Shown: one piece after another, positions 5,101-59,811 of the stretch
How the letters are laid out: each line of letters opens with the position of its first letter
Position numbering within the stretch: the stretch's first letter is position 1
Assembly (NCBI GenBank): GCA_023898465.1
Contig: CP060223.1
Location: 544,001-608,000 of the forward strand
Source: Candidatus Nomurabacteria bacterium
GTDB taxonomy: Bacteria > Patescibacteriota > Patescibacteriia > HK-STAS-PATE-3
Reading direction: 5' to 3'
DNA: 64,000 bases
Notes under the pieces: generated by a model
The model's database searches: none
Seen by the model: only the letters and a program-made list of their open reading frames with translations
What the model was told of the DNA's origin: nothing
Made by a program: the position numbers and the translations under genes

Positions 5101-5129
5101 AATATAGCACATTAGCAAAAATATGTCAA
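5101..5129 (-). promoter_or_regulatory. Sigma-70-type promoter for the sigma-r4/HARE-HTH operon: TTGACA-N17-TATATT on the minus strand.
   Basis: Revcomp of 5124-5129 is TTGACA. Revcomp of 5101-5106 is TATATT. Spacer 17 nt. Confidence 0.6.
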
Positions 5130-20494: not shown

Positions 20495-20665
20495 GACTCT
20501 TGTACTCCATTGCTTGGCTGTGTGGCCATCCTTGGTTTCTCGGGCGCCAAAAACGCCCTCCTGTTGCAAACGGAGATACTACGCGAGTCTCTCTATTTTG
20601 TCAACCATGCACCGAACCTGGTACGGAGTGAGTCCCACACCAAACTTGGTGTGGGGTCAACCACT

Positions 20666-29452: not shown

Positions 29453-29557
29453 CAGATACCCCCAGTTATTGGAACTCTTGTAAGTGATTCCACTCTCGCA
29501 GAATCGTGAAATGAGCCTGTTTCTGCCGCGAAAACATCCGGCATGAAACACCGTAAC

Positions 29558-29869
29558 CTAGCATCTGCAGGTGATTTTGTCAACCATTAGCCCCAGGCGA
29601 AAATGGTCATCTTCGCCTGGGGTATACATATTTTGCAAAAGTAAAGACGCGATGCCCTCTCCATCGCGTCTGTATAGCTCTTCATCCGGATCTTCCGGGA
29701 AATCACAGCTAGGATTAATATGCGTCTTCCAAACGATCAATCGATGCTCCTGATTCGGTAAGACCTGGACCACTCCCTCATACATCTCACCGGGATAAAT
29801 CGGTTGACAGCAACGATCGCACCAATGCGCAACTTGAGCAACGCTATGATAAGAGCGTAGGCAAATCAT
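29558..29869 (-). CDS. Hypothetical small Cys/His-containing protein.
   Basis: HWCDRCC...C...C..C. Possible Zn binding, speculative. Confidence 0.4.
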   Translation of the reverse strand: MICLRSYHSVAQVAHWCDRCCQPIYPGEMYEGVVQVLPNQEHRLIVWKTHINPSCDFPEDPDEELYRRDGEGIASLLLQNMYTPGEDDHFRLGLMVDKITCRC

Positions 29870-32877: not shown

Positions 32878-33071
32878 TTGACAAAGATTTTAGCAAGTCT
32901 TAATGTCTCTATGTTGTCACAAGTACAACAGGCTCCCTGCGGTGCTCCGCGGGTACAATACACAAGAGATCAATCAGATTTGCGAAGTCGCCCTGCGGGG
33001 TGAATTCACCTGCAAAAGCAGGCTCTCTCGTGTGTTGGCCCAACGTGTATTGCGTGGGGGCCTTTTTCTTT
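32878..33071 (+). ncRNA. Candidate small RNA: TTGACA-N17-TAATGT promoter, about 150-nt GC-rich body, intrinsic terminator GGCCCAACG...CGTGGGGGCC plus TTTTTCTTT.
   Basis: Promoter at 32878-32906 and terminator at 33037-33071, read directly. The only ORF here (32903..33247) is implausible. It lies between the pspC and mscL genes on the opposite strand. Confidence 0.3.
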
Positions 33072-35190: not shown

Positions 35191-35805
35191 TTATATTTCT
35201 TGTCTACGCTTGCGCTGGAGCCAGGATTGAAACTCTTTATCCTGTTTCATTATCTCTTCAATCTCTCCGCGTAAGTAGTCAGCTTTTTTAAGTTTCGTAT
35301 TTTGAGTTTTCCAATCAAGATAGTGATCAATGGTCGGAGTAATGCGCAAAGTAAATTTAATGCGCGGAATCTCTTTCACTTCCCGCTTCCCAACTGTTTT
35401 GAGGAAGTCACCCAATAACCATTGTAATGAGTCATCCGTATAATAACGTATCTGACAAGTTTTTGGAACCTGCTTTTGATTGAGATATTTCAAGATTTGC
35501 CGGCCAGGACTACCGCGCTCTGATAAAAAGATGGTTGGCTTCTTCTGGGCGACTGCATAGGCAAGTAAATATCCAACTTCCGAGTCAGGAGTTGAGCCCT
35601 CAATCACAATTGCATCCATTGCATCAAGCAAGGTGCCACCTTTTGCTTCTATTTCTTGGGCTGAGGCTGGATCTAGGCTTGTTTCTGGGTGAATAGTGTT
35701 TGAGGAAAGTGCAATATCTGCCTCACGCAAAATGCGTCGTATCATGGCGTAGGCCTGTCGCAATCGTTGAGTGGTCGTATCTGGTCCGTAAAAATACACG
35801 TGCAT
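35191..35805 (-). CDS. Nucleoside 2-deoxyribosyltransferase-like (NDT/Rossmann-like) protein.
   Basis: VYFYGP...LDAMDAIVIEGSTPDSEVGYLLAYAVAQKKPTIFL resembles the NDT family core (G/Y-rich loop, D..E, KP). Confidence 0.45.
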   Translation of the reverse strand: MHVYFYGPDTTTQRLRQAYAMIRRILREADIALSSNTIHPETSLDPASAQEIEAKGGTLLDAMDAIVIEGSTPDSEVGYLLAYAVAQKKPTIFLSERGSPGRQILKYLNQKQVPKTCQIRYYTDDSLQWLLGDFLKTVGKREVKEIPRIKFTLRITPTIDHYLDWKTQNTKLKKADYLRGEIEEIMKQDKEFQSWLQRKRRQEI

Positions 35806-35806
35806 A

Positions 35807-36805
35807 CTAGTGGTGCAGAATTTCCTTTATCTTTTCTTTAAGTAAGCGCTGCACTTGAGTGGTATTTTTTGCTTGAGCAAAAATCCATGAGCTCAACACA
35901 AAAGCACTGTGATATGGCAGGGTGTGGAGAAGTGGTAAAGAGCTCAATCGATCTTGTTGAGCTTCTTGCTGATAAACTATCACAGGAACTTTACTTTTTT
36001 GCAGTTTTTCTAACGCCGAAACATGAGCTGAACTAAGCTGACTAGCTGGATCAAGCTTCACGAGAACTCCCGGTGCTTTCATTACCTCGCCGCTCAATCG
36101 ATCGGTGATTTGCATACCTGGATGCACATCAATCACCACCATGTCTGAGGCAAAGTCAGTGGCAAATTTCACTGCCCGATTACTCTGTTTCCTGATCGGT
36201 GGGAATAGTTTCAAGCCGAAATCAACTTTACCGAGCAAAATTCCGGACAAGGAACGGAAATACTGTGCATCGGGCGGTGCCACTGTAGTCAATTCAATCG
36301 CGCGATGAATTTGATTACCAAAGACCGCACACACATCACCGAAGGAGTATTCAGCTACATGCAGGGCATTCAAGAGATTATCCTTTTGTCCTAAGCCTCG
36401 TGCATGGGCGAACAGCGCCCGTATGTTTGCCGGCACTTTTGGACGCAGCAAATCATGCGGTGAGGCAGTTAATACGACTGGCTTACCTGTGTTTCCCAGT
36501 GCTGCGCCCAGGGCGGGTGCGGTATAGTGCAGCGTTTCTACTTCATGGCTAATCACAAAGCCGTCGAACTTGGTATAGTTGTCGCTAATCACCCGACCGA
36601 TTGACTGCCACAAGGCTGGCGAAACCCCGGACCCTTCGGCGTTTGCCACGTAGGTTGCATCGATTTCTGCCATGATGCTCAACTCTTGCATTTCTCGCAT
36701 CCAAGCAGCCACCTCGCGCTCACTCTGCACCAGGCGCTTTTTGCCTGGACCATACGACAGCGCTGATCCGCTGACGAGAAGTATAAGAATGCGTGCACGT
36801 TGCAT
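35807..36805 (-). CDS. L-asparaginase-fold homolog with degenerate catalytic motifs (pseudo-asparaginase).
   Basis: Aligns to type I asparaginase (YTKFDGFVISHEVETLHYTAPALGAALGNTGKPVVLTASPHDLL...NLLNALHVAEY), but TGGTIAG is VSGSALS and HGTDTM is SHEVETL. Confidence 0.5.
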   Translation of the reverse strand: MQRARILILLVSGSALSYGPGKKRLVQSEREVAAWMREMQELSIMAEIDATYVANAEGSGVSPALWQSIGRVISDNYTKFDGFVISHEVETLHYTAPALGAALGNTGKPVVLTASPHDLLRPKVPANIRALFAHARGLGQKDNLLNALHVAEYSFGDVCAVFGNQIHRAIELTTVAPPDAQYFRSLSGILLGKVDFGLKLFPPIRKQSNRAVKFATDFASDMVVIDVHPGMQITDRLSGEVMKAPGVLVKLDPASQLSSAHVSALEKLQKSKVPVIVYQQEAQQDRLSSLPLLHTLPYHSAFVLSSWIFAQAKNTTQVQRLLKEKIKEILHH

Positions 36806-36897: not shown

Positions 36898-38268
36898 TTA
36901 TGACCTCAGCCACTCTCTCCCCTGTCGTACGAGCAGCTCTTCTGCTTCCTCGGGGTCCTGGAGAAGCTCACGTACCACGCGCTCAAGTCGCACTGATTGC
37001 GAACCCTTCACCAATACGATGTCATGCAGACCTACTACCGAGCGGAGAAAAACCACTGCAGCTTTTGCGTCGGGAAACTCGTGCACTTCCTCCTCAGGAA
37101 AACCTGCTTCACGTGCTGCAGCTGCGATCTTGGCACCCAGCTTGCCAACGGTCACGAGAATATCGGCATGTCCTTTTACCGTCTTTCCAATTTCAGCATG
37201 TGCGTCATCAGTGTATTCCCCCAGCTCAGCCATATCACCTAACACCACAATACGGCGGAAAAAAGTAGCGGATTCAATGGTCTCAGATTTTTTTAATGGT
37301 CCAGTTGTAAGGTGATGTCGCAAATCCTTGGACAAATCACTGATCAACTGAAGTGCCGCAGTCACTGCACGTGGCGAGGCATTATATGAATCATCAATCA
37401 GGAGAGAACGCTTCTGACCTTTGAGTAAACGAGTGCGGCCACGTGGCGGGACGAAATGACGAAAGGCCTCAGCGATGTCGCGCAGATCCATACCATAGGC
37501 AAGTGCCACGCATGTTGCAGCTAGGGCGCTGGAAATAATTGCCTGCCCTACACTTCCTCGCAGCTCCAATGTTGCACTCTTATCCTCAAAATGTACTACG
37601 CAGCGCATGCCCTCGATGCTGGGAAACGCTTCAAATGATTCCTGCTTCCCATACAAGAAACCTACCTCGGTTGCCTGAACGTCAGCTTCTGCGTGAATGC
37701 CATAGCTCAGCACCCGCGACTTGGTCAGTTTATGAAATTCTAAGACTCGCTCATCATCTGCATTGAGAATGGTGTAGCCATCATCTTCTGTGCTTTTTGC
37801 CAGGACCGACTTTTCCTCTGCTACCTTCTCAACTGATCCAAAAAATTCCGTGTGCACTGGAGCAACTGCGGTGACAACACTTACCCGTGGTCGCGCAATG
37901 CTACAGAGATAGCTAATATCGCCCGGATGATCAGCGCCCATTTCTAGTATCAAGACTTCAGGGAAAGGACGACGTTGCAAAAGTAGCTTTGTCGCTTTGA
38001 TAAAAATTCCTAGCCAGGCAAAAGGGTTCCGACCGCCGCTCTTCGCGTCAATAATCGCCAGAGGTAAGCCAAGCTCGTTATTCAAGTTACCCTGACTCCG
38101 TCGCACCGCAAAAGCCCCGCTCATGACAGTGAAAATTGCTTCTTTGGTACTGGTTTTTCCAACGCTGCCCGTAATCGCCACCACATCGGGTTGATACTTA
38201 GCTAGGATTTTCCGTGCATACCAGGCTAGGATGCGCTGCACATACTGCTGGAGCTTTGAGATAGACAT
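36898..38268 (-). CDS. murF: UDP-N-acetylmuramoyl-tripeptide--D-alanyl-D-alanine ligase MurF.
   Basis: Mur ligase P-loop ITGSVGKTSTKE, DDSYNASP motif, C-terminal domain. Confidence 0.85.
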   Translation of the reverse strand: MSISKLQQYVQRILAWYARKILAKYQPDVVAITGSVGKTSTKEAIFTVMSGAFAVRRSQGNLNNELGLPLAIIDAKSGGRNPFAWLGIFIKATKLLLQRRPFPEVLILEMGADHPGDISYLCSIARPRVSVVTAVAPVHTEFFGSVEKVAEEKSVLAKSTEDDGYTILNADDERVLEFHKLTKSRVLSYGIHAEADVQATEVGFLYGKQESFEAFPSIEGMRCVVHFEDKSATLELRGSVGQAIISSALAATCVALAYGMDLRDIAEAFRHFVPPRGRTRLLKGQKRSLLIDDSYNASPRAVTAALQLISDLSKDLRHHLTTGPLKKSETIESATFFRRIVVLGDMAELGEYTDDAHAEIGKTVKGHADILVTVGKLGAKIAAAAREAGFPEEEVHEFPDAKAAVVFLRSVVGLHDIVLVKGSQSVRLERVVRELLQDPEEAEELLVRQGREWLRS

Positions 38269-38388
38269 ATAGAGTAGTATAGCATTATCACCCTAGCGAT
38301 AAATGCACATCTTGACAATTCTCAGGAAAATATATAGTATACGGCCGAAAACCAAAAAAAGAATACGCTCTCTTCTACTCCCCCGGCG

Positions 38389-38430
38389 GGCCTCCAGACT
38401 ACTTCTCTGGAGGCCCCCTTTCTTTATTCT
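38389..38430 (+). terminator. Plus-oriented stem-loop GGCCTCCAGA-N7-TCTGGAGGCC followed by CCCTTTCTTTATTCTTT. Terminator-like, transcript unknown.
   Basis: 10-bp perfect stem at 38389-38415 and a T-rich tail, read directly. Confidence 0.35.
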
Positions 38431-38453
38431 TTACTAAAAAGACTTTGCATGGT

Positions 38454-38670
38454 TTGACAGTAAAAAAGTGAAAGGTATAAGCTGACAACGGAAACGGCCC
38501 GGACGTGTGGAGATGCTTCAAGATAGGGGTCGTAGTCCATGCCCAAAAATCGCACATTCGCATGGAGGAGGGGTAGAGGGTAATTCAGAAGCCGTCCGGG
38601 CACTTTGCCGGATCGTGAACCCTCCAGTCGGAGCCTCGGAATCGGTGTGCGTGATTGCCGGGGCTTTTTT
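38454..38670 (+). ncRNA. Candidate sRNA A: TTGACA-N16-TATAAG promoter, about 180-nt GC-rich structured body, GCCGGGGC plus TTTTTT terminator.
   Basis: Promoter at 38454-38481. Long-range pairing GCCCGGACG/CGTCCGGGC and CCATGC/GCATGG. T6 at 38665-38670. The overlapping ORFs 38424..38798 and 38507..38740 look non-protein-like. Confidence 0.3.
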
Positions 38671-38671
38671 A

Positions 38672-38878
38672 TTGACAAAAAATTTCCATTTGTTACTATG
38701 GCTGCATCGCACCTTCCCGCTCCTTTTTTCAACTTCCTAGCAGCTGATTCAGCTGCATTCGCGTTCGCTCTACGGACTTCCCCTTTCTCTGTTCTCACTG
38801 CTCCCTCCTGTCTTCCGTGTTCTGGCTTCGCGTCTCGTTCTCCCAGCCAGGTGCAACATTGTACCTGGCTTTCTTTTT
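38672..38878 (+). ncRNA. Candidate sRNA B: TTGACA-N16-TACTAT promoter, about 170-nt C/U-rich body, GCCAGGT-N10-ACCTGGC plus TTTCTTTTT terminator.
   Basis: Promoter at 38672-38699 and terminator at 38846-38878. Internal GCAGCTG-att-CAGCTGC hairpin. CU-rich tracts (CCTTCCCGCTCC, CTCCCTCCTGTCTTCC). Confidence 0.3.
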
Positions 38879-39410
38879 AAAAATCTACAGCAGCCAAATA
38901 TCTCGCTGTATTCACATTTCGTACAGTCATGTACTTATACAGCTTTGACCCAATCACTTTACTCAACTGACTTTTATTCAGGTTCTCTTTTTTTACGTGC
39001 CAGACAATCGCACCTTTTATATAACGCAAGTCCATATACTCTTTTTTCATTGGTAACTCATCAAGAGTTTTCTTATCATCAACTTCAGGGAAAAGGAAAG
39101 CTACATCGGTCTTTTGTGTCTGATGATCGTTCTGCCAAGTCTGAGGAATTGCTGCCACGATTTTCTTCACCTCAGCTTGTGTCTTGATTAACACGGGGAT
39201 AGGAAAGCCAAATTCATTTACTAGGGCTTTTGTCAGCGCTGACTGAATATCCTTACTCTTCCCTTTTGCATTAAAAAGAATGTTGCCAGAATTTATGTAA
39301 GTTGAAACATCCGTGTAACCCAAACTCCCACACAACTCCTTGAGTCGCTTCATTTCTACTTTGTTATTCCCGCCAACATTAATGCCGCGGAGGAGGGCTA
39401 TGTATCTCAT
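38877..39410 (-). CDS. DUF1697 family protein.
   Basis: MRYIALLRGINVGGNNKVEMKRLKELCGSLGYTDVSTYINSGNILF is a canonical DUF1697 N-terminus. AT-richer than the flanks. Confidence 0.8.
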   Translation of the reverse strand: MRYIALLRGINVGGNNKVEMKRLKELCGSLGYTDVSTYINSGNILFNAKGKSKDIQSALTKALVNEFGFPIPVLIKTQAEVKKIVAAIPQTWQNDHQTQKTDVAFLFPEVDDKKTLDELPMKKEYMDLRYIKGAIVWHVKKENLNKSQLSKVIGSKLYKYMTVRNVNTARYLAAVDF

Positions 39411-39973
39411 TGATTGATCACCAAAAACTTCTGCTCAGGAATTTTAAGAATTTCGCACGGCTCTCCAAAACTCTCAAGACCTTCAAGCTTATCTTGTTTG
39501 TCTTCCGACCAATGGACAAACACTTTCACATTTAAGATCCCCAAACCTTGGTGAAATTTCTGACTATCAACATGATAAAAATATCGCGATAACATTTGCG
39601 CCCCAGCGGATGATCCTGCTACTGTTTTTCCCTGCCACAACTCTACCAGCATAGGCACCTTCCGCATATGTTCCAAAAGTACTAATGTCTCACCGCCAAT
39701 AGTATAAATTGCATCAGCGTTCTTAATCTGCTCAATAAAAGTCTGTGTATTCTCGGACGCCATAACAAAGTGTATAGATTTCTCCAGAGCAACTACAGAA
39801 AATCGTTCTTTGGTTAAATCAAAAAATTCTTTCCAGAGGCTTTTATCACGTGCAAAGGGAATAAACAACACAGTAGGCTCGCTCGGTACATCCTTTAAAA
39901 TTTCCTGCACGTAAGCTCGATTATCTACAGTATCATATTTTAGCGCACCACCGTGCAGTATATATTTTGTCAT
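39407..39973 (-). CDS. Peptidase S51 (peptidase E / cyanophycinase-like, class-I glutamine-amidotransferase-like) family protein.
   Basis: GKTVAGSSAGAQML is a GxSAG nucleophile elbow in the expected position. 4-bp overlap with the DUF1697 gene. Confidence 0.6.
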   Translation of the reverse strand: MTKYILHGGALKYDTVDNRAYVQEILKDVPSEPTVLFIPFARDKSLWKEFFDLTKERFSVVALEKSIHFVMASENTQTFIEQIKNADAIYTIGGETLVLLEHMRKVPMLVELWQGKTVAGSSAGAQMLSRYFYHVDSQKFHQGLGILNVKVFVHWSEDKQDKLEGLESFGEPCEILKIPEQKFLVINQ

Positions 39974-39993
39974 ACGTTAAACCTTTTCGACAT

Positions 39994-40512
39994 TTATTTT
40001 CTCCCGACATTCTCATCCATGTCTTTGCCTCCAATAAAAGACAAAACATCAAAATCAGGATCAAGCAACTTTACTAAATCAAGGTCAGGACGATTCATTA
40101 TTTCCACGCCTGGCATTTTTTCACCTCTAGACAACGCCTTTTTTAGTTCTTCAAATTCCTCTTTATCCAAGACAAAATCAACATCGCCCACCTCGGTGTG
40201 CTGATCTGGTTTACGAATATAGAGATAGGTATAGGTGGTCTCCGGAATATCACCTTGGGCAGGAATAACAATGGGCTCATGGAGACGATAATATTTTTGA
40301 TTCCAATTATCAGATTCTTTTGTCAGCTCCTGGCGAACTTTTGTGAGATAGCTATACTCGTCATCGTCATGGCAAAATATTCCGAGATTACCTGCCACTG
40401 GTAAATATCTGCCAAAATTTTTTTTACATAACTCAAAACACTTAAGGTGAGTATATGTTATCGCTTGTATCAATTGCTCTTTGTCTTGGATTGGACTAAA
40501 TCGATACTGCAT
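39994..40512 (-). CDS. Hypothetical protein.
   Basis: Intact ORF, AT-richer composition. No motif recognised. Confidence 0.5.
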   Translation of the reverse strand: MQYRFSPIQDKEQLIQAITYTHLKCFELCKKNFGRYLPVAGNLGIFCHDDDEYSYLTKVRQELTKESDNWNQKYYRLHEPIVIPAQGDIPETTYTYLYIRKPDQHTEVGDVDFVLDKEEFEELKKALSRGEKMPGVEIMNRPDLDLVKLLDPDFDVLSFIGGKDMDENVGRK

Positions 40513-40578
40513 GATTTCTGCTATAGAACTTCCTTTACAATACGCAGCTGAAGATGGCCATCTTCAGCTGCGGTTGAG

Positions 40579-42336
40579 TTACTCCCCAACTACACTCGGC
40601 GGAACTTCGAAGTAATTCAAGAGGAACTTCGCAATATCGCCGAATAAAGGCGCAGCAGTGCTCTCGGCAAATTTCACGTCCTTAGGATCCACAATCTTGG
40701 TCACCATGACAAACTTCGGGTCCTCGACCGGACCGAAACCGGCGAAGGAGCCAATGGTGCGATTAGGATCATAGCCCGGACCGTCAGTGCGTGGAATCTG
40801 CGCCGTACCTGTTTTACCGGCAATGTAATATCCTGGCACAGCCGCTCTCGTACCGTGACCATTCTTCACTACATTTACGAGCATGGCTGATACTGTGGTT
40901 GAGGTTTTTGGATCCAACACTTGTCGTACAGCTGTGGGGTGAGTTTTCACATGGAAGTCATTTGGCTTCACAATTTCATCAACGATGTATGGTTTATACA
41001 AAGTTCCCCCATTTGCAATAGCTGCATAGGCCGCGGCCAGCTGCAAAGGCGTGGCGGTGATACCTTGACCAAAAGAAGCGGTGTCAACGTAAATGTCACG
41101 TCCGCTGGCCAGCTCTCCGAGATTACCAGCCGACTCATTACCAAGCTCAACACCAGTCTGCTCACCAAAACCAAAGCGCTTCACATAGTCATAAAAAACG
41201 TCGTTCCCGGCCTGTTGCGCAGCAAAAATTGCTCCGGTGTTTAGAGATTTTTCCAACACCTCGGTCATTGTTTGCGTACCGTATGTTTTATCGTCGGAAT
41301 TCCGAATCGTGAAGCCGCCAACCTCTACACTTCCTTCATCAACATAAGTGGTTTCCGGTGTAACCTTGCCAGTATCAACCGCGGTCGCCATGGTAATGGG
41401 CTTGAAAATCGATCCAGGCTCATAAGGACTAATGGCCGGATTAAGAAAAACATCCAAGTCAGTCACCTCGTTGTAATGATTCGGATCAAAGTCAGGATAA
41501 CCGCACATGGCCAATATGGCACCGCTATCTGGATCAAGTATAACCACCGCCCCACTCTCAGCCCCGTGCTTCAGTACGGCTTCTTGAAGCTTCGTGCACA
41601 CAGTGTATTCCAGGGTACGGTCAATGGTAAGGATGAGATCATCACCATCTTTAGCATCTTGGATAAATCGATCGCCGACGGTAATCCAACGACCGGCCGC
41701 GTCGCGCTCAGCTTGCAAATAACCCTGTTGACCAGCCAGCTCTTCATCAAAATAACCTTCCAGTCCATACTGTCCTTTTTTCACATCCTCTGACATGCCA
41801 AGGAAACCAAGGATTTGGCTGGCCAGACTTCCCTCTGGATAAAGGCGTCCCTTTTCACTAATGAAAGAGATGCCATCAATCTCTAATGCCTCAATTTTTT
41901 CTTTGGTAGCAACGCTTATATTATGCTCAATCGGTTCATAGACATCGTCGCTTTTTGATAATCGAGCAAGTAATGTTTCTTTATCAAGCGTGATGAAACT
42001 TTCAAGCTTTTCGGTCACATCCTCCGGATCTTCAATTCGCTTTGGCACAGCATATACTAGGAAGCGTTCCTCATTGGTAGCCAGTGGAAAAAGCTGCCCA
42101 TCTGAATAGCGATCGTGCGCGTAAATTTCTCCACGATCTGGTAAAAGCCGTTGCTCAATTTCGTGCTGACCAGAGGCCAGCGCTTCGTAGAACCCGTGCG
42201 CTAAAACCTGCAGCGTGAATAGACGAACTACTAAAATACTCGAAAAGCCAAATAACAAAATAAGCAGCACGGTGAGACGATCAAGTCGCCATCTTGGCTG
42301 CTGTTGTCGTGGTCGATTGCGTCCGTACCGCGTCAT
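40579..42336 (-). CDS. ftsI: Penicillin-binding protein 2/FtsI (class B PBP, septal transpeptidase).
   Basis: N-terminal TM, dimerisation domain, transpeptidase motifs SIFK (SxxK), SLN (SxN), KTGT (KTG). Confidence 0.85.
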   Translation of the reverse strand: MTRYGRNRPRQQQPRWRLDRLTVLLILLFGFSSILVVRLFTLQVLAHGFYEALASGQHEIEQRLLPDRGEIYAHDRYSDGQLFPLATNEERFLVYAVPKRIEDPEDVTEKLESFITLDKETLLARLSKSDDVYEPIEHNISVATKEKIEALEIDGISFISEKGRLYPEGSLASQILGFLGMSEDVKKGQYGLEGYFDEELAGQQGYLQAERDAAGRWITVGDRFIQDAKDGDDLILTIDRTLEYTVCTKLQEAVLKHGAESGAVVILDPDSGAILAMCGYPDFDPNHYNEVTDLDVFLNPAISPYEPGSIFKPITMATAVDTGKVTPETTYVDEGSVEVGGFTIRNSDDKTYGTQTMTEVLEKSLNTGAIFAAQQAGNDVFYDYVKRFGFGEQTGVELGNESAGNLGELASGRDIYVDTASFGQGITATPLQLAAAYAAIANGGTLYKPYIVDEIVKPNDFHVKTHPTAVRQVLDPKTSTTVSAMLVNVVKNGHGTRAAVPGYYIAGKTGTAQIPRTDGPGYDPNRTIGSFAGFGPVEDPKFVMVTKIVDPKDVKFAESTAAPLFGDIAKFLLNYFEVPPSVVGE

Positions 42337-42348
42337 AGCACCTAGGCT

Positions 42349-42708
42349 TTAACGACGGGCAAAGGCGGAATCGGTCGGACTAAGATATTCAATATGCGCC
42401 ACTTCGGTTAAGCCGAGCTGGCCACTTGCTTCCTGGACTGCACTCAGAGATTGCAGCTCAGTCGCCTCTACTTCCAGGCGACGATTTTCTTTACGCAACT
42501 CATCTACTCGATTTTCCAGCGTCTTGATTTCGAAACCAGTTGTCGCCACATTGTTAATCAACGCTAAATAGGCTCCCCCACCAATCACTGCGAGCGTCAC
42601 CGTTAACACGGTAATTGCAGTGAGGCGCAGCTTCAATGTACGAAGCAGCGTACCTGCTAAGCGTTGAGAAATGGTGCTTTGTTGAGTTGTGCGATCGTAA
42701 TAGGTCAT
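42349..42708 (-). CDS. ftsL: FtsL/DivIC-like cell-division protein (single TM plus coiled coil).
   Basis: TM helix LTAITVLTVTLAVIGGGAYLALI followed by a leucine-zipper-like ENRVDELRKENRRLEVEATELQ. Positioned between rsmH and ftsI. Confidence 0.6.
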   Translation of the reverse strand: MTYYDRTTQQSTISQRLAGTLLRTLKLRLTAITVLTVTLAVIGGGAYLALINNVATTGFEIKTLENRVDELRKENRRLEVEATELQSLSAVQEASGQLGLTEVAHIEYLSPTDSAFARR

Positions 42709-43658
42709 TGGATTTTTTCTGCTACTCGGAGTTTAGCGCTCCTGGAACGTGAATTGTGCGCAATCTCATCCTGACCCGGCACGACTGGTTTCTTGGTCAG
42801 CACCTGCAATGAAGCATGGTGATTGCACGTGCAGACCGGTTGTTGGGCAGGACAGATGCAGTCTGTTGATTCGCGCCGGAAGAAACGCTTCACGATCCTA
42901 TCCTCTAGCGAGTGATAACTGAGGACCGCGATGCGACCGCCGGGTTGAAGCAAGTGAACTACTTCTGGTAAAACGCGCGCGAGGACGTCGAGCTCGTCAT
43001 TGACTTTAATGCGAAGCGCTTGGAAGACTTGCGTCGCAGGGTGAATGCGCGATCGCCCTCGCTTGGGTTTTACCTTATCTATACAGGCGACAAGTTGTGG
43101 AATGTGCGTGAAGGGATTTTTTTGACGCTCGGTAACGATTGCTCGAGCAATGCGACCAGCTGCTGACTCTTCCCCGTACTCTTTGAATATTTTTTTTAGC
43201 TCTTGCTCAGATGCGGTATTGAGGATATCGGCAGCCGTTGCTTGTGCGCTGGTCGGATCAAAGCGGAAATCGAGAGGCGCGGAACTTAGAAAGGAAAATC
43301 TTGATGCGAGAGCTTCGATTGCCAGTGAAGAGAGACCAAGGTCCAATAGAACACCGCGTAGTTGAATATCTGGGAATTGTTCATGGATGCGCTGTGCTGC
43401 GTGAACAAAATTATCATGCAGGAGATGAGTGCGCTGGCTATACTTCTGTAAACGCGCCTTGGCTATATCCAGTGTGACTGGATCCGCCTCTACTCCAATG
43501 AGTATTCCCTTTGGAGCTGTGCGCTCAAGCATTGCTTCAGCGTGCCCTCCCCCACCTAGAGTCAGATCAAGCACCGTATCGCCTGAACCTAGGTTGAGGA
43601 GCGCTAATGTTTCGTTGAGAAGAACAGGAATGTGTCCGCGGCCGGATTGGGCAGGCAT
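42705..43658 (-). CDS. rsmH: 16S rRNA (cytosine1402-N4)-methyltransferase RsmH (MraW).
   Basis: HIPVLLNETLALL...DLTLGGGGHAEAM SAM-binding signature. Upstream ORF residues are an extension artefact. Confidence 0.85.
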   Translation of the reverse strand: MPAQSGRGHIPVLLNETLALLNLGSGDTVLDLTLGGGGHAEAMLERTAPKGILIGVEADPVTLDIAKARLQKYSQRTHLLHDNFVHAAQRIHEQFPDIQLRGVLLDLGLSSLAIEALASRFSFLSSAPLDFRFDPTSAQATAADILNTASEQELKKIFKEYGEESAAGRIARAIVTERQKNPFTHIPQLVACIDKVKPKRGRSRIHPATQVFQALRIKVNDELDVLARVLPEVVHLLQPGGRIAVLSYHSLEDRIVKRFFRRESTDCICPAQQPVCTCNHHASLQVLTKKPVVPGQDEIAHNSRSRSAKLRVAEKIQ

Positions 43659-43659
43659 C

Positions 43660-44103
43660 TTAGACACCGATTTCACCAAGCGCCTCGGCAATATCACCGC
43701 TGGACTTCTCGGTTTTGGTCTTATAAGCGGCCCAAGCAGTTTCATCCCAGAGTTCCAGGCGGTTGTACAAGCCAGCTACCACTACCTTCTTCTTCATAGT
43801 GGCGTACTTGCGCAAGTAATCAGGCAACATGATGCGCCCCTGCTTATCAATCTCCACATCCATGGCCCCAGCCAGCATTAAGCGTGAAAAAGCGCGGGTG
43901 TTTGCTTGAGCAATTGGCAAATTCGCTAACTTGTCAGCTAACTTCTCCCACTCTTGTTGTGGATACAAGAAAAGACAGTTGTCCAAGCCTCGGGTGACGA
44001 CTGCCCCTTTGCTGAGTGCTTCACGGAATTTTCGAGGTACTGCGAGGCGACCTTTTTCATCAATCGCGTGGTAGTACTCTCCGATAAACATGCTGGTGGT
44101 CAT
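43660..44103 (-). CDS. mraZ: Transcriptional regulator MraZ.
   Basis: MFIGEYYHAIDEKGRLAVPRKFRE... with duplicated SpoVT/AbrB-like halves. The start may be 44091. Confidence 0.85.
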   Translation of the reverse strand: MTTSMFIGEYYHAIDEKGRLAVPRKFREALSKGAVVTRGLDNCLFLYPQQEWEKLADKLANLPIAQANTRAFSRLMLAGAMDVEIDKQGRIMLPDYLRKYATMKKKVVVAGLYNRLELWDETAWAAYKTKTEKSSGDIAEALGEIGV

Positions 44104-53339: not shown

Positions 53340-54527
53340 ATGAAACCCTCCCCTCTTATCAAGCGTTATATCCACGTCCGTTTAAATAGTTTTCTCGCTA
53401 GTATTGTTGAGAGAGAAAACCCCAAACTACAGGGTCGGCCTATTGTAATAAGCGAAATGCATAATAATGAAGAACGCGTGCTGAGTTGTAATATCCCAGC
53501 AAAAAAGCTAGGCATCCAAAAGGGCGATACAATTTTACAGGCAAAGAAGCGCTGTACTTGGGTGGCGGTATTTCCTAGTGACATTGAATTAGCAAAAACC
53601 TATGCGAAAGAGTTTATTGCCCTACTCTGTCGATTTTCCACTAAGGTCTATCCGCATAATCGTTTAGACGAAGCCTACATTGAGCTAGACGTCAGTGGAA
53701 TTGCTGCAAGCTCTCCAGAGGAGTTTGCGGCAACTATCCAGCGAAGCATTAAGGTACAACTTGGTTTAAATGCTAGCATTGGAATTGCACGCACTCGTTC
53801 GGTTGCCTGGAGCGCTGCACTGCATAAGCAGCCCGAAGGGATTACCAGTGTGCCTATTGGTAGTGAGCGCGCTTTTCTTTACCCTCTTCCACTTACTCAG
53901 CTCTACTCGCTGGGACAGCGCTCACGCGAATACCTCCTCTCGCATGGTATTCGGACTATTGGCCAACTAGCTGCTTGCTCCAGTAATTGGTTAGTGGAAC
54001 AGTTTGGCAGTGCAGGATATGAGCTACTTCAGTTAGGTCATGGCCAGGATATAAAAGAAGTGAAAACGCCAACTTTACAGAAGTCTATTTCGCGCTCACT
54101 TCGCTTCGAGGCTCCAACAAGTAATCCTGCATTAATTGAAACTACAGTAGCTCACTTAAGTGAAAAGGCTCTTCGTACGCTCCAAAAGCAGGGTCGACGT
54201 GCTGAGACCGTGGTGCTGCAAGTGACCGACATTTACGGTCGCTCACACCAAAGTCATGCAAAACTTTCTAGCTCACGAAACTCATTCCAAAAAGGACTTT
54301 ACAGTGTTTTTCGTCATCTTACCGCTCAGGTGAGCGCTATTCGTTCTATTGCCGTGCAGCTGCACACGTTGCTAGAAACACCGCAGGAGCAACCAAATCG
54401 TGTATGGCAAAGTCAGCCGGTACAATCAGCTATTTTAGGTCTAGAGTGGAGATCGGGTCAGCGGGCCAGAAAAGCAGCAAGATCAGGCAGCTTGGTGCAG
54501 TTACCACTACTCGGTATGAGCGCTTAG
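53340..54527 (+). CDS. Y-family DNA polymerase homolog lacking the N-terminal catalytic aspartates (ImuB-like, predicted catalytically inactive).
   Basis: IHVRLNSFLASIVEREN aligns to DinB IHVDMDAFFASVE (D to R and D to N). RLDEAYIELDVSG retains DE. Fingers, palm, thumb and little-finger length are appropriate. Confidence 0.65.
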   Translation: MKPSPLIKRYIHVRLNSFLASIVERENPKLQGRPIVISEMHNNEERVLSCNIPAKKLGIQKGDTILQAKKRCTWVAVFPSDIELAKTYAKEFIALLCRFSTKVYPHNRLDEAYIELDVSGIAASSPEEFAATIQRSIKVQLGLNASIGIARTRSVAWSAALHKQPEGITSVPIGSERAFLYPLPLTQLYSLGQRSREYLLSHGIRTIGQLAACSSNWLVEQFGSAGYELLQLGHGQDIKEVKTPTLQKSISRSLRFEAPTSNPALIETTVAHLSEKALRTLQKQGRRAETVVLQVTDIYGRSHQSHAKLSSSRNSFQKGLYSVFRHLTAQVSAIRSIAVQLHTLLETPQEQPNRVWQSQPVQSAILGLEWRSGQRARKAARSGSLVQLPLLGMSA

Positions 54528-58938: not shown

Positions 58939-59112
58939 AGTGAGATAAGATGAATAAAGAAGCGGTCTTCCGAGACCGCCTGCACTTCCCCACATTTGGG
59001 GAGAAGATTGGCTACCTCGGTAAGGTGATGGTTGAATCCGCCCTAGAGCGGACCTTACGGTCTTTGGTAGATAAATTGTCAAAACCTAGACTAGCAATCT
59101 CTCCGTATACTG

Positions 59113-59811
59113 TCAAGTAAAAATGCGTGTACCATGAAATGCCTTACCCTGGAGGGCTAATTTTACCTGCTCTAAACGCTTCCCCTGCAAAATATCCACT
59201 TCTAAGCCGTGCTTTTGGGCCAAAGCACTTGCTCGAGGATCAAATGGCGAGCTTAAACGCGGTGTCCACTTCTTAGGGATTATTTTCCTATACTCTTTCC
59301 AGTTCACTTGCCCAAGCGCTTTTGCGTCCTTATACTTCTTGGGATCCTTGGTATACACATAGGGAATGTCGGACAAATTGAGAATACGAGTGGCCCCTAG
59401 AGCAATTGCCATCTGCACAGCATCCATATCTGTTGAATGCCCTGGGACATAGCCTCCCCCTAGGAGAATCGGCCGCAACATCTTTGGCGGCTTCTCAGGA
59501 TTATCAATGAGGGTGGTATTTGCGTATGCACCAAAAATGCTACGGAGAAGATGCGCATGTACCTTCGTCGTGGCAATACCTATCCAGTCCAGATCAACTG
59601 CTTTGACGGTGGCGAGCTTCCGAGCTGCTTCATTGTAACGTTTGTTTGTCTTCCCTCCCCCGGTAATAATAACAAAGCGCTGACCTTGCCGTACAAAGCT
59701 CAAAATCAATTGACGAAACTTTTTTAAAAACGTGACATCTATTTCATCAGGCACAATCAGTGACCCGCCTAGTGAAATAATGCTTACTGGTTGTGTGGGC
59801 TGTTTTTTCAT
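59113..59811 (-). CDS. Amino-acid-kinase-fold protein, most similar to archaeal-type UMP kinase (PyrH).
   Basis: VSIISLGGSLIV...FVIITGGGKTNKRYNEAARKLATVKAVDLDWIGIATTKVHAHLL. Confidence 0.55.
   Translation of the reverse strand: MKKQPTQPVSIISLGGSLIVPDEIDVTFLKKFRQLILSFVRQGQRFVIITGGGKTNKRYNEAARKLATVKAVDLDWIGIATTKVHAHLLRSIFGAYANTTLIDNPEKPPKMLRPILLGGGYVPGHSTDMDAVQMAIALGATRILNLSDIPYVYTKDPKKYKDAKALGQVNWKEYRKIIPKKWTPRLSSPFDPRASALAQKHGLEVDILQGKRLEQVKLALQGKAFHGTRIFT

What the first reader, a model, noticed from the sequence alone, without database searches (positions are those of the whole stretch)
38877..40512. AT-rich three-gene insertion splitting the dcw cluster between ftsI and murF
The mraZ-rsmH-ftsL-ftsI genes are normally followed directly by murE/murF. 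Here DUF1697, an S51 peptidase-E-like protein and a hypothetical protein intervene. They are about 38-40% GC, visibly lower than ftsI and murF, and include a 4-bp overlap. Three putative small RNAs follow. This suggests a laterally inserted cassette. S51 dipeptidases and cyanophycinase-like enzymes could relate to peptide or cell-wall precursor turnover.
Basis: partly seen in the sequence, partly recalled or inferred. Interest (0 to 1): 0.5.

Follow-up and report, generated by a model that had tools for sequence, protein, structure and literature searches.

The report
Accessory genes inserted in dcw cluster
In one uncultured, ultra-small bacterium (Patescibacteria), three small unrelated enzyme genes and a 608-base non-coding stretch lie between two cell-wall genes that are adjacent in its relatives; this is a real but ordinary lineage-specific insertion that seems to have been built in at least two steps.

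Summary
On the minus strand the order is mraZ, rsmH, ftsL, ftsI, a 172-aa protein with no family, a 188-aa S51 hydrolase, a 177-aa DUF1697 protein, 608 non-coding bases, then a MurF-like ligase. The three genes have the lowest GC of 60 ORFs in the window, and the last two overlap by ATGA.

Synteny supports an insertion. In 27 related Patescibacteria loci ftsI and the ligase lie less than 300 bp apart. None of 62 dcw loci carries any of the three genes.

A single cassette is not supported. A closer relative (ftsI 91% identical) has DUF1697 directly after ftsI, without the other two genes. The next relative (71%) has a different, opposite-strand ORF at the same junction. Elsewhere the three families never co-occur. 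There is no integrase, tRNA or flanking repeat.

The 172-aa protein models as a YecM-like fold of the VOC (vicinal oxygen chelate) superfamily. The S51 protein keeps the catalytic Ser and His.

The spacer matches no Rfam family. It does hold three plus-strand promoter-to-terminator units, which are candidate small RNAs that I could not verify.

A link to cell-wall metabolism is weak: 4 of 31 S51 lineages lie near dcw genes. This is an ordinary hotspot insertion of modest interest.

The parts
40579..42336 (-). ftsI (class B penicillin-binding protein), the last gene before the insertion
   Evidence: Pfam PBP_dimer + Transpeptidase. It is 69-71% identical to L001 and 91% identical over its last 167 aa to L075.
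40543..40572 (.). Perfect 15+15 palindrome just after the ftsI stop; a hairpin with a weak U tail on the minus strand
   Evidence: Inverted repeat I3, 100% complementary. Relatives have long palindromic hairpins in the ftsI-murF spacer. The hairpin is absent from L075, whose spacer is 17 nt.
39994..40512 (-). hyp172: 172-aa protein of an unannotated Patescibacteria family with a YecM-like VOC-superfamily fold
39407..39973 (-). S51-family serine hydrolase (188 aa, named 'type 1 glutamine amidotransferase-like' by NCBI)
   Evidence: PF03575, 60.5 bits. Far below the PepE and cyanophycinase equivalog cut-offs. Invariant S122 in GSSAGA and H154, with a mostly conserved C-terminal Glu/Asp, in 37 homologues. 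Aligns to PepE 1fy2 and to 6nqc. 224 homologues; every source name shown but one is Patescibacteria or a candidate phylum within it.
38877..39410 (-). DUF1697 protein (177 aa); its start overlaps the S51 stop (ATGA)
   Evidence: PF08002, 136 bits. PDB 2hiy E 1.8e-13. 86% aa identical to the gene directly after ftsI in L075. dN/dS 0.10. Nearest homologues are 60-66% identical in Patescibacteria, Leptospira, Gracilibacteria and Chitinivibrionales.
38269..38876 (.). 608-bp non-coding spacer, part of the material absent from relatives
   Evidence: No Rfam or tRNA hit. No similarity to any related locus. Its longest ORF (124 aa, 38424-38798, minus strand) has no homologue among 1.84 billion representatives. 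The plus strand folds with z -3.7.
38312..38425 (+). Unit 1: TTGACA-N17-TAGTAT promoter-like site, then an 11-bp GC-rich hairpin with a T tail (38388-38416); predicted RNA of about 80 nt
   Evidence: Fold z -4.7. I see no start codon in the predicted transcript (reading).
38454..38670 (+). Unit 2: TTGACA with a weaker -10 (TATAAG or TAAGCT), then a hairpin and T6 (38642-38670); predicted RNA of about 180 nt
   Evidence: The fold is not better than shuffles (z -0.4). This is the weakest of the three units.
38672..38880 (+). Unit 3: TTGACA-N16-(TG)TACTAT promoter-like site, a C/U-rich and mostly unpaired body, then an 11-12-bp hairpin with a T tail (38845-38870); predicted RNA of about 175 nt, ending against the 3' end of DUF1697
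   Evidence: Fold z -4.5.
38276..38284 (-). TGcTATACT, an extended -10-like element 7 nt before the murF ATG; candidate own promoter for murF giving a leaderless-looking mRNA
   Evidence: Read. Other consensus promoters in the window also end 3-7 nt before start codons. Inference only.
36898..38268 (-). MurF-like Mur ligase, the gene that directly follows ftsI in relatives
   Evidence: Mur_ligase_M and Mur_ligase_C. Best NCBIfam model is murF at 275 bits. Adjacent to ftsI in 27 related loci.

Best explanation
This is a lineage-specific filling of a permissive junction in the dcw region of a Patescibacteria genome (NCBI name 'Candidatus Nomurabacteria bacterium'; its ftsI is closest to MAGs labelled Kerfeld-, Falkow- and Uhrbacteria).

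Ancestral state. ftsI was followed within tens to a few hundred bases, usually a long hairpin, by the MurF-like ligase.

In this lineage about 2.3 kb (38269-40578) has accumulated there, probably in at least two steps:
- DUF1697 came first. It is shared with a sister species and has near-average GC3.
- hyp172 and S51 came later. They are found only here and have lower GC3.

The three genes are unrelated small cytoplasmic enzymes that occur singly, in variable contexts, in other genomes. They are a YecM-like VOC-fold protein, an S51 Ser-His-acid hydrolase and a DUF1697 protein.

They are co-directional with the operon and tightly packed (20-bp gap, then a 4-bp overlap). They are therefore most likely expressed by read-through past the weak post-ftsI hairpin, with S51 and DUF1697 translationally coupled. 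murF would then be transcribed from its own extended -10 promoter.

Shown: the insertion, its absence from relatives, the two-gene difference from the sister species, purifying selection on DUF1697, and the fold and catalytic residues.

Inferred: the order of events, co-transcription, the murF promoter, and that the genes have no dedicated role in division or wall synthesis.
For: Synteny:
- In 26 loci, plus L118, the ligase lies less than 300 bp after ftsI.
- No hyp172, S51 or DUF1697 homologue appears in any of 62 dcw loci.
- L075 has the ftsI stop, 17 nt, then DUF1697 (86% aa identity), so the window carries an extra 1168 bp (39411-40578).
- L001 has an unrelated 325-aa ORF on the opposite strand at the same junction, and a further insertion after murF.

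The three families are independent:
- hyp172 sits next to Fic, a CTP transferase, a Y1 transposase-like gene, or between the secE-nusG-L11 genes and gyrB.
- S51 sits in 69 lineages without the other two genes. Its commonest neighbours are a tyrosine-recombinase-like ORF (9 loci), a NUDIX-like ORF (6) and a serine hydrolase (5).
- DUF1697 stands alone in L074, and in L158 sits in an island with a toxin-antitoxin pair and an integrase.

Other support:
- Composition: the three genes have the lowest GC in the window, and GC3 is lower for hyp172 and S51 than for DUF1697.
- Selection: dN/dS is 0.10 for DUF1697 and 0.04 for ftsI.
- The junction is real: independent assemblies agree.
- Spacers in relatives are long hairpins, so the site was already a boundary inside the cluster.
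Against: - The order of events is not resolved. One three-gene insertion followed by a two-gene deletion in the L075 lineage needs the same number of events.
- L075 is only 1130 bp long, so what follows DUF1697 there is unknown.
- Synonymous divergence from L075 is lower for DUF1697 (pS 0.49) than for the adjacent ftsI (pS 0.66). Simple shared ancestry does not predict this.
- No mobility gene, repeat or target-site duplication shows how the DNA got in.
- An S51 homologue inside another dcw block (L073, L080, L098) leaves room for a functional link.
Confidence: 0.7

Rival explanations
1. One three-gene block was acquired at once, together with the spacer. The sister lineage (L075) later deleted hyp172 and S51 precisely.
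For: This needs the same number of events as the stepwise scenario. The three genes are tightly packed and S51 and DUF1697 overlap by ATGA, as in an established operon. All three are AT-rich relative to their flanks.
Against: The three families never co-occur anywhere else sampled. GC3 differs between DUF1697 (0.43, near the window mean) and hyp172 and S51 (0.35, 0.37). In L075, DUF1697 follows the ftsI stop after 17 nt with no trace of deleted sequence.
Confidence: 0.2
2. The genes were recruited for function. The S51 hydrolase, perhaps with its neighbours, acts on peptidoglycan stem peptides or their precursors, and selection therefore keeps it inside dcw clusters in Patescibacteria.
For: An S51 homologue (44-49% identical) lies between ftsW and murG in L073/L084, L080 and L098. 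Others lie 2.5 kb (L118) and 5.3 kb (L147) upstream of mraZ. The Ser and His are invariant, so it is probably an active hydrolase. Characterised S51 enzymes are dipeptidases or exopeptidases (names of the PDB entries).
Against: Only 4 of 31 lineages with enough flank are near dcw genes, and two of those share one arrangement. My rough estimate of the chance expectation for a 1-Mb genome is a few percent, so the excess is not significant. The closest relatives lack S51 at this site. The commonest neighbours are a recombinase-like ORF and a NUDIX-like ORF. No S51 enzyme known to me acts on muropeptides.
Confidence: 0.1
3. The arrangement is ancestral, and the many relatives with ftsI next to murF lost the genes independently.
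For: Patescibacteria genomes are streamlined and gene loss is common (general knowledge). hyp172 is widespread in the group (762 hits).
Against: It would need many independent, scar-free losses across MAGs labelled Kerfeld-, Falkow-, Uhrbacteria, Kazan and Parcubacteria. hyp172 and S51 homologues sit at unrelated sites elsewhere. L001 carries different cargo at the same junction.
Confidence: 0.03
4. The junction is a chimeric join made during assembly or binning of the metagenome-assembled genome.
For: The source is a metagenome-assembled genome, and the region deviates in composition.
Against: Three separate assemblies give the same proteins at 99-100% identity. SRR12358675 spans ftsI, hyp172, S51, DUF1697 and 247 spacer bases; SRR12358676 spans ftsI, hyp172, S51 and the start of DUF1697; ERZ28655665 carries hyp172 and S51 only. 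L075 independently shows ftsI joined to DUF1697.
Confidence: 0.02

Closest known systems
Insertions at hotspots within otherwise conserved gene order (small genomic islets without mobility genes)
   Same: The accessory genes are absent from relatives. Different cargo sits at the same junction in sister lineages (window, L075, L001). Composition deviates. Homologues of the cargo lie in variable regions elsewhere, some next to recombinases or toxin-antitoxin genes.
   Different: There is no integrase, tRNA or direct repeats here. [quoted passage not shown]
Canonical dcw cluster (mraZ-rsmH-ftsL-ftsI-murE-murF-mraY-...)
   Same: mraZ, rsmH, ftsL, ftsI and a MurF-like ligase are in the canonical order and on one strand.
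   Different: Only one Mur ligase follows ftsI. The next genes are asparaginase/GatD-like and nucleoside-deoxyribosyltransferase-like, not mraY. In this window 2.3 kb of foreign DNA separates ftsI from murF.
Peptidase E (PepE, S51 aspartyl dipeptidase; PDB 1fy2) and cyanophycinase-like exopeptidase (6nqc)
   Same: Pfam S51 membership, the GxSAGA nucleophile motif and a downstream His.
   Different: The protein is shorter (188 aa) and has an invariant N-terminal MTKYILHGG motif. It scores far below the PepE (35.8 vs 156) and cyanophycinase (24 vs 126.6) equivalog cut-offs. It is a Patescibacteria subfamily of unknown substrate.
E. coli protein EC4020 (PDB 1k4n; YecM from memory) and the VOC (vicinal oxygen chelate) superfamily
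   Different: No sequence-level match to any Pfam family, YecM included, for any of 42 members. No PDB match by sequence. The function of YecM itself is unknown (my recollection).
DUF1697 (PF08002; PDB 2hiy)
   Same: Full-length Pfam match and a sequence match to the solved structure.
   Different: Nothing distinguishes it from the family. The function of the family is unknown, and only two papers in the library mention it.

Membership tests
dcw cluster | mraZ-rsmH-ftsL-ftsI followed by Mur ligase gene(s), co-directional | tested here: met
   Pfam and NCBIfam assignments; all on the minus strand, 36898-44103.
dcw cluster | Contiguity of ftsI and the following Mur ligase, as in relatives | tested here: not met
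   2310 bp intervene here, against less than 300 bp in 27 related loci.
Peptidase family S51 | Match to PF03575 above the gathering score | tested here: met
   60.5 bits against a cut-off of 23.9.
Peptidase family S51 | Catalytic Ser (GxSxG-type motif) and His; third acidic residue | tested here: met
   S122 and H154 are invariant in 37 sequences, and a C-terminal Glu/Asp is mostly conserved. The Ser aligns with the G-x-S-A-G-A motif of 1fy2; that this is the PepE nucleophile is my recollection. The acidic residue is assigned from the alignment only.
PepE (dipeptidase E) or cyanophycinase orthologue | NCBIfam equivalog score above the cut-off | tested here: not met
   PepE 35.8 vs 156; cyanophycinase 24 vs 126.6.
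DUF1697 | Match to PF08002 above the gathering score | tested here: met
   136.3 bits against 24.4, covering the full model; 2hiy E 1.8e-13.
YecM / VOC superfamily (hyp172) | Fold similarity to solved members | tested here: met
YecM / VOC superfamily (hyp172) | Sequence-profile membership (Pfam YecM or Glyoxalase families) | tested here: not met
   No such family matched in any of 42 members at E<=5.
YecM / VOC superfamily (hyp172) | Metal-binding His/Glu ligands placed in the cavity | not testable with these tools
Genomic island / integrative element | Integrase, transposase or relaxase within or next to the insert | tested here: not met
   None among the ORFs from 36898 to 44103. No PHROGs hit and no phage DNA match.
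Genomic island / integrative element | Flanking direct repeats or insertion next to a tRNA | tested here: not met
   Only short, chance-level repeats; no tRNA in the window.
Genomic island / integrative element | Absent from close relatives and compositionally deviant | tested here: met
Integron gene cassettes | Each ORF followed by an attC-type imperfect palindrome; integron integrase nearby | tested here: not met
   Only 20 bp lie between hyp172 and S51, and S51 overlaps DUF1697 by 4 bp, so no attC-sized spacer exists. No integrase.
Anti-phage defence system | Match to PADLOC models | tested here: not met
   No hit for any of the three proteins.
Known small RNA families (spacer) | Rfam covariance-model match | tested here: not met
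   Nothing at gathering score; only chance-level hits at E 5-8.
Independent small transcription units (spacer) | Consensus promoter followed by an intrinsic terminator, with no ORF | tested here: met
   3 of the window's 11 TTGACA-N16-18-TANNNT sites, and 2-3 of its few strong terminators, lie in these 608 bases on one strand. The longest ORF has no homologue.
Independent small transcription units (spacer) | Conservation or covariation in relatives; expression | not testable with these tools
   No related sequence in any fetched locus.

The most novel reading that the evidence does not exclude
The 2.3-kb insert is not inert cargo. The 608-bp spacer would encode three tandem small RNAs, transcribed against the dcw genes. 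Units 1 and 3 have C/U-rich, anti-Shine-Dalgarno-like single-stranded bodies. The Patescibacteria-specific S51 hydrolase, which also sits between ftsW and murG in another lineage, would process peptidoglycan stem peptides. On this reading the block is a lineage-specific regulatory and enzymatic add-on to cell-wall synthesis in an organism with a minimal wall-building gene set.
Probability: 0.1. Interest if true: 0.6.

Novelty: new member of a known kind. Interest (0 to 1): 0.3.

Why it matters
The dcw cluster is among the most conserved gene arrangements in bacteria (PMC8871954). This case shows that in streamlined Patescibacteria one of its internal junctions, ftsI|murF, behaves as a small insertion hotspot. 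The window genome, the L075 relative and L001 each carry different cargo there.

Three by-products are useful leads for annotating these uncultured bacteria:
- A widespread, strongly conserved Patescibacteria family with no Pfam entry can now be called YecM-like or VOC-fold.
- A distinct 188-aa S51 subfamily is defined, with an invariant MTKYILHGG N-terminus and an intact Ser and His.
- This genome uses near-consensus sigma-70 promoters, often placed for leaderless mRNAs.

None of this changes how we understand cell division. The functional consequences remain untested.

Tried and rejected
- Rfam, on the whole window at gathering score and on the spacer at E<=10: only chance-level hits.
- ARAGORN: no tRNA or tmRNA.
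- Flanking direct or inverted repeats: only short chance matches, apart from the post-ftsI palindrome and the terminator hairpins.
- blastn and tblastx of the spacer against all fetched loci: only the same organism's own contig.
- The 124-aa ORF in the spacer: no homologue among 1.84 billion representatives, so I treat it as non-coding.
- Homology among the three spacer units: none.
- Alignment of the 73-nt tail of L075 with the window spacer: not convincing. Homology seems to end at the DUF1697 stop.
- Conserved signals upstream of hyp172 homologues: none.
- Viral contigs for hyp172, phage DNA for the whole insert, PHROGs and PADLOC: nothing. A phage or defence origin is therefore rejected.
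- PDB by sequence for hyp172: nothing. Pfam on 42 members: nothing relevant.
- The afdb50 fold library was not available. Model coordinates could not be read to check the metal site.
- Literature searches for YecM and DUF1697 gave nothing useful.
- Integron cassettes were considered and rejected, because there are no attC-sized spacers.
Full report
**What is there**

All genes between 31 and 44 kb are on the minus strand. In the direction of transcription they are:

| Gene | Coordinates | Length |
|---|---|---|
| mraZ | 43660-44103 | 147 aa |
| rsmH | 42705-43745 | 346 aa |
| ftsL-like | 42349-42708 | 119 aa |
| ftsI | 40579-42336 | 585 aa |
| hyp172 (no family) | 39994-40512 | 172 aa |
| Peptidase_S51 | 39407-39973 | 188 aa |
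| DUF1697 | 38877-39410 | 177 aa |
| non-coding spacer | 38269-38876 | 608 bp |
| Mur ligase | 36898-38268 | 456 aa |
| asparaginase/GatD-like | 35807-36805 | 332 aa |
| nucleoside-deoxyribosyltransferase-like | 35191-35805 | 204 aa |

Downstream come DUF2207, mscL, pspC and liaF-like genes. The Mur ligase's best NCBIfam model is murF, at 275 bits against a cut-off of 288.6. The S51 stop and the DUF1697 start share ATGA at 39407-39410.

**Composition**

- The three genes have GC 0.383, 0.397 and 0.397. ftsI has 0.484 and murF 0.505.
- They are the three lowest of the 60 ORFs I scored. For three adjacent genes this has a chance of about 58/C(60,3) = 0.002 (my arithmetic).
- The deficit is largest at codon position 2 (0.28-0.30 against a typical 0.39), which reflects amino-acid composition.
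- GC3 z-scores are -1.5 (hyp172), -1.2 (S51) and -0.3 (DUF1697).

Composition alone is thus only moderate evidence for foreign origin. It does hint that DUF1697 has been resident longer than the other two.

**Organism and authenticity**

- The exact proteins are on record from a 1.08-Mb contig. NCBI names its source 'Candidatus Nomurabacteria bacterium' and gives hyp172 the locus tag H6760_02895.
- The best ftsI relatives are Patescibacteria MAGs: 69-71% identity for L001, then 50-59% for MAGs labelled Kerfeld-, Falkow- and Uhrbacteria.
- Three separate assemblies reproduce the region at 99-100% protein identity. Two of them (SRR12358675, SRR12358676) span the ftsI-hyp172 junction; ERZ28655665 carries hyp172 and S51 only.
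- SRR12358675 also carries 247 bases of the spacer at 100% DNA identity.

A chimeric assembly is therefore very unlikely.

**Synteny**

I fetched 62 dcw loci from one genome per species, with 10-kb flanks, and located the window's proteins in them by tblastn.

- In 26 of them the MurF-like ligase begins less than 300 bp after ftsI. L118 from the later metagenome scan makes 27.
- None of the 62 loci has a homologue of hyp172, S51 or DUF1697 within 10 kb at E<=1e-5.
- L001 (ftsI 71%) has 1.6 kb between ftsI and murF, filled by an unrelated 325-aa ORF on the opposite strand. It has a second insertion between murF and the asparaginase-like gene.

The decisive locus is L075, a 1130-bp contig from SRR32105342.

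- It carries the last 167 codons of an ftsI that is 91% identical in protein (79% in DNA).
- Next come the stop codon, 17 nt, and a DUF1697 gene that is 86% identical in protein (84% in DNA).
- Relative to that organism the window has an extra 1168 bp (39411-40578). This holds the post-ftsI palindrome, hyp172 and S51.

So the junction carries three different states in three related lineages, and the window's state differs from its closest known relative by exactly two genes.

**Are the three genes a cassette?**

No.

- hyp172 homologues at 68-80% identity lie next to a Fic gene (L066), a CTP-transferase-like gene (L068), a Y1 transposase-like gene (L070), and between the secE-nusG-L11 genes and gyrB (L157).
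- The S51 alignment retrieved 80 metagenome loci. None has hyp172 or DUF1697 nearby.
- Clustering the flanking ORFs shows the commonest S51 neighbours: a tyrosine-recombinase-like ORF (9 loci), a NUDIX-like ORF (6) and a serine hydrolase (5).
- DUF1697 homologues stand alone in L074. In L158 one sits in an islet with a YoeB/Phd toxin-antitoxin pair, a phage-type integrase and a glyoxalase gene.
- In the window itself there is no integrase, transposase, tRNA or meaningful flanking repeat.
- There is no match to phage DNA, PHROGs or PADLOC.

**What the proteins are**

*hyp172*
- It belongs to a family of at least 762 proteins. Every source name shown is a Patescibacteria MAG, and the best 120 listed are 60-80% identical, with 25 invariant positions in a 42-sequence alignment.
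- It has no Pfam, NCBIfam or PDB sequence match.
- An alignment-based AlphaFold2 model is confident (pLDDT 91.5, pTM 0.87).
- I therefore call it a YecM-like VOC-fold protein. Invariant H22, H48 and E52 are candidate metal ligands, which is an inference.

*S51 protein*
- It keeps the GSSAGA nucleophile motif (S122) and H154 in all 37 aligned homologues. It has a mostly conserved C-terminal Glu/Asp and an invariant N-terminal MTKYILHGG.
- It aligns to PepE (1fy2) and to a cyanophycinase-like exopeptidase (6nqc).
- It is far below both equivalog cut-offs. It is a probable active hydrolase of unknown substrate, not PepE.

*DUF1697*
- It is a full-length family member, related to PDB 2hiy.
- Its nearest homologues are about equally distant (60-66%) in Patescibacteria, saprophytic Leptospira, Gracilibacteria, Saccharimonadales and Chitinivibrionales. 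ftsI is only about 50% identical between Patescibacteria groups. That points to lateral spread of this DUF1697 clade.
- The family also occurs on 38 plasmid records.

**History**

Between the window and L075, dN/dS is 0.04 for ftsI and 0.10 for DUF1697, so DUF1697 is a functional gene.

Synonymous divergence is lower for DUF1697 (pS 0.49, dS 0.78) than for the adjacent ftsI (pS 0.66, dS 1.6). By my binomial standard errors the difference is about 2.8 SE. I cannot explain this. It could mean that DUF1697 was exchanged between the lineages after they split, or it could reflect saturation and codon effects.

The stepwise scenario has DUF1697 arriving first and hyp172 with S51 later. The block-then-deletion scenario needs the same number of events. 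I prefer the stepwise one for three reasons:
- The families do not travel together elsewhere.
- GC3 is lower for hyp172 and S51.
- L075 shows no scar.

**Why this site**

In relatives whose ftsI-murF spacer is 100-290 bp, that spacer is mostly one long AT-rich palindromic hairpin (L008, L011, L012, L019, L036, L118).

The window has a perfect 15+15 palindrome right after the ftsI stop (40543-40572). On the minus strand a weak U tract follows it.

The junction thus looks like a pre-existing internal boundary of the cluster, where extra DNA does not break an essential coupling.

Just upstream of murF, TGcTATACT ends 7 nt before the ATG. This is an extended -10 placed for a leaderless mRNA. That murF has its own promoter is an inference.

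**The spacer**

- The strict motif TTGACA-N16-18-TANNNT occurs only 11 times on both strands of the 64-kb window. Eight lie immediately upstream of ORF starts, so the motif is predictive in this genome. The other three lie in the 608-bp spacer, all on the plus strand.
- Strong hairpin-plus-T-tail terminators are also rare: 9 in the window, nearly all at gene ends. Two of them are in the spacer on the plus strand, or three with the looser scan, and no plus-strand ORF precedes them.
- Paired up, these give three units of about 80, 180 and 175 nt (38312-38425, 38454-38670, 38672-38880).
- Units 1 and 3 fold better than shuffles (z -4.7 and -4.5). They have C/U-rich, largely unpaired bodies ahead of the terminator. 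Unit 2 does not fold better than shuffles (z -0.4).
- The units are not similar to each other, to Rfam families or to any fetched locus.
- The longest ORF in the spacer has no homologue in 1.84 billion proteins.

It remains unverified, because I had no relatives or transcripts to test it. Relics of promoters and terminators of lost plus-strand genes are an alternative. So is a 60-codon ORF spanning unit 3.

**Link to the cell wall**

An S51 homologue lies between ftsW and murG in L073/L084, L080 and L098. Others lie 2.5 kb (L118) and 5.3 kb (L147) upstream of mraZ.

After collapsing near-identical loci, 4 of 31 lineages with at least 6 kb of flank have a dcw gene within 6 kb, and two of those share one arrangement. 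By my rough estimate chance would give a few percent, so this is suggestive at most.

**Verdict**

The insertion interpretation is supported. The single-cassette idea and the cell-wall-turnover idea are not.

This is a new example of a known kind of event: accessory genes accumulating at a permissive hotspot, here inside the dcw region of a Patescibacteria genome. Side results are the YecM-like fold assignment, the S51 subfamily, and the candidate small transcription units.

Interest 0.3.

Noticed in passing
window 5101-5129, 20576-20604, 29555-29583, 52544-52572, 59088-59116 (minus strand); 32878-32906, 52639-52668 (plus strand): Near-consensus sigma-70 promoters (TTGACA-N16-18-TANNNT) sit just upstream of ORF starts. 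Several end only 3-7 nt before the start codon (for example 59116 to ATG 59082, and 29583 to GTG 29551). This suggests that leaderless mRNAs are common in this genome.
   Followed up: partly
window 35807-36805 and 35191-35805 (minus strand); L001 11673-13288; L003 16508-18053; L005 11967-13543: An asparaginase/GatD-like gene followed by a nucleoside-2-deoxyribosyltransferase-like gene lies downstream of murF here and in three relatives, where mraY would be expected. It may be a conserved pair in this clade. A second, full-length asparaginase is at 47956-49053.
   Followed up: no
L001 6339-7316 and 10306-11401: The closest genome-level relative has its own, different insertions. One is a 325-aa opposite-strand ORF between ftsI and murF. 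The other is an HTH-XRE-like 255-aa gene plus a 112-aa gene between murF and the asparaginase-like gene.
   Followed up: partly
L008, L011, L012, L019, L036, L118 (ftsI-murF spacers): The spacers between ftsI and murF in relatives are long AT-rich palindromes that fold into one extended hairpin. This may be a conserved attenuator or processing element inside the cluster.
   Followed up: partly
L073 3555-10614 (also L080, L084, L098): In another Patescibacteria lineage an S51 homologue sits between ftsW and murG, and an amidohydrolase sits between murG and a MurC-like ligase. These are further non-canonical genes inside a dcw block.
   Followed up: partly
window 39411-40578 compared with L075 507-523: Synonymous divergence between the window and L075 is about half as large for DUF1697 (dS 0.78) as for the adjacent ftsI (dS 1.6). 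I have no explanation; recombination or later exchange of DUF1697 is possible.
   Followed up: partly
window 38700-38850, minus strand: The minus-strand RNA downstream of DUF1697 would be purine-rich, with about eight GGA motifs in 150 nt by my count. This is the mirror image of the C/U-rich unit 3. Its significance is unknown.
   Followed up: no
window 52291-53301: A lexA-like gene has a divergent consensus promoter pair, and a Y-family polymerase (IMS) gene lies downstream at 53340-54527. This looks like an SOS-type module in a Patescibacteria genome.
   Followed up: no
window 43660-43745: The longest ORFs of mraZ and rsmH overlap by 86 nt, so the true rsmH start is probably further downstream.
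   Followed up: no
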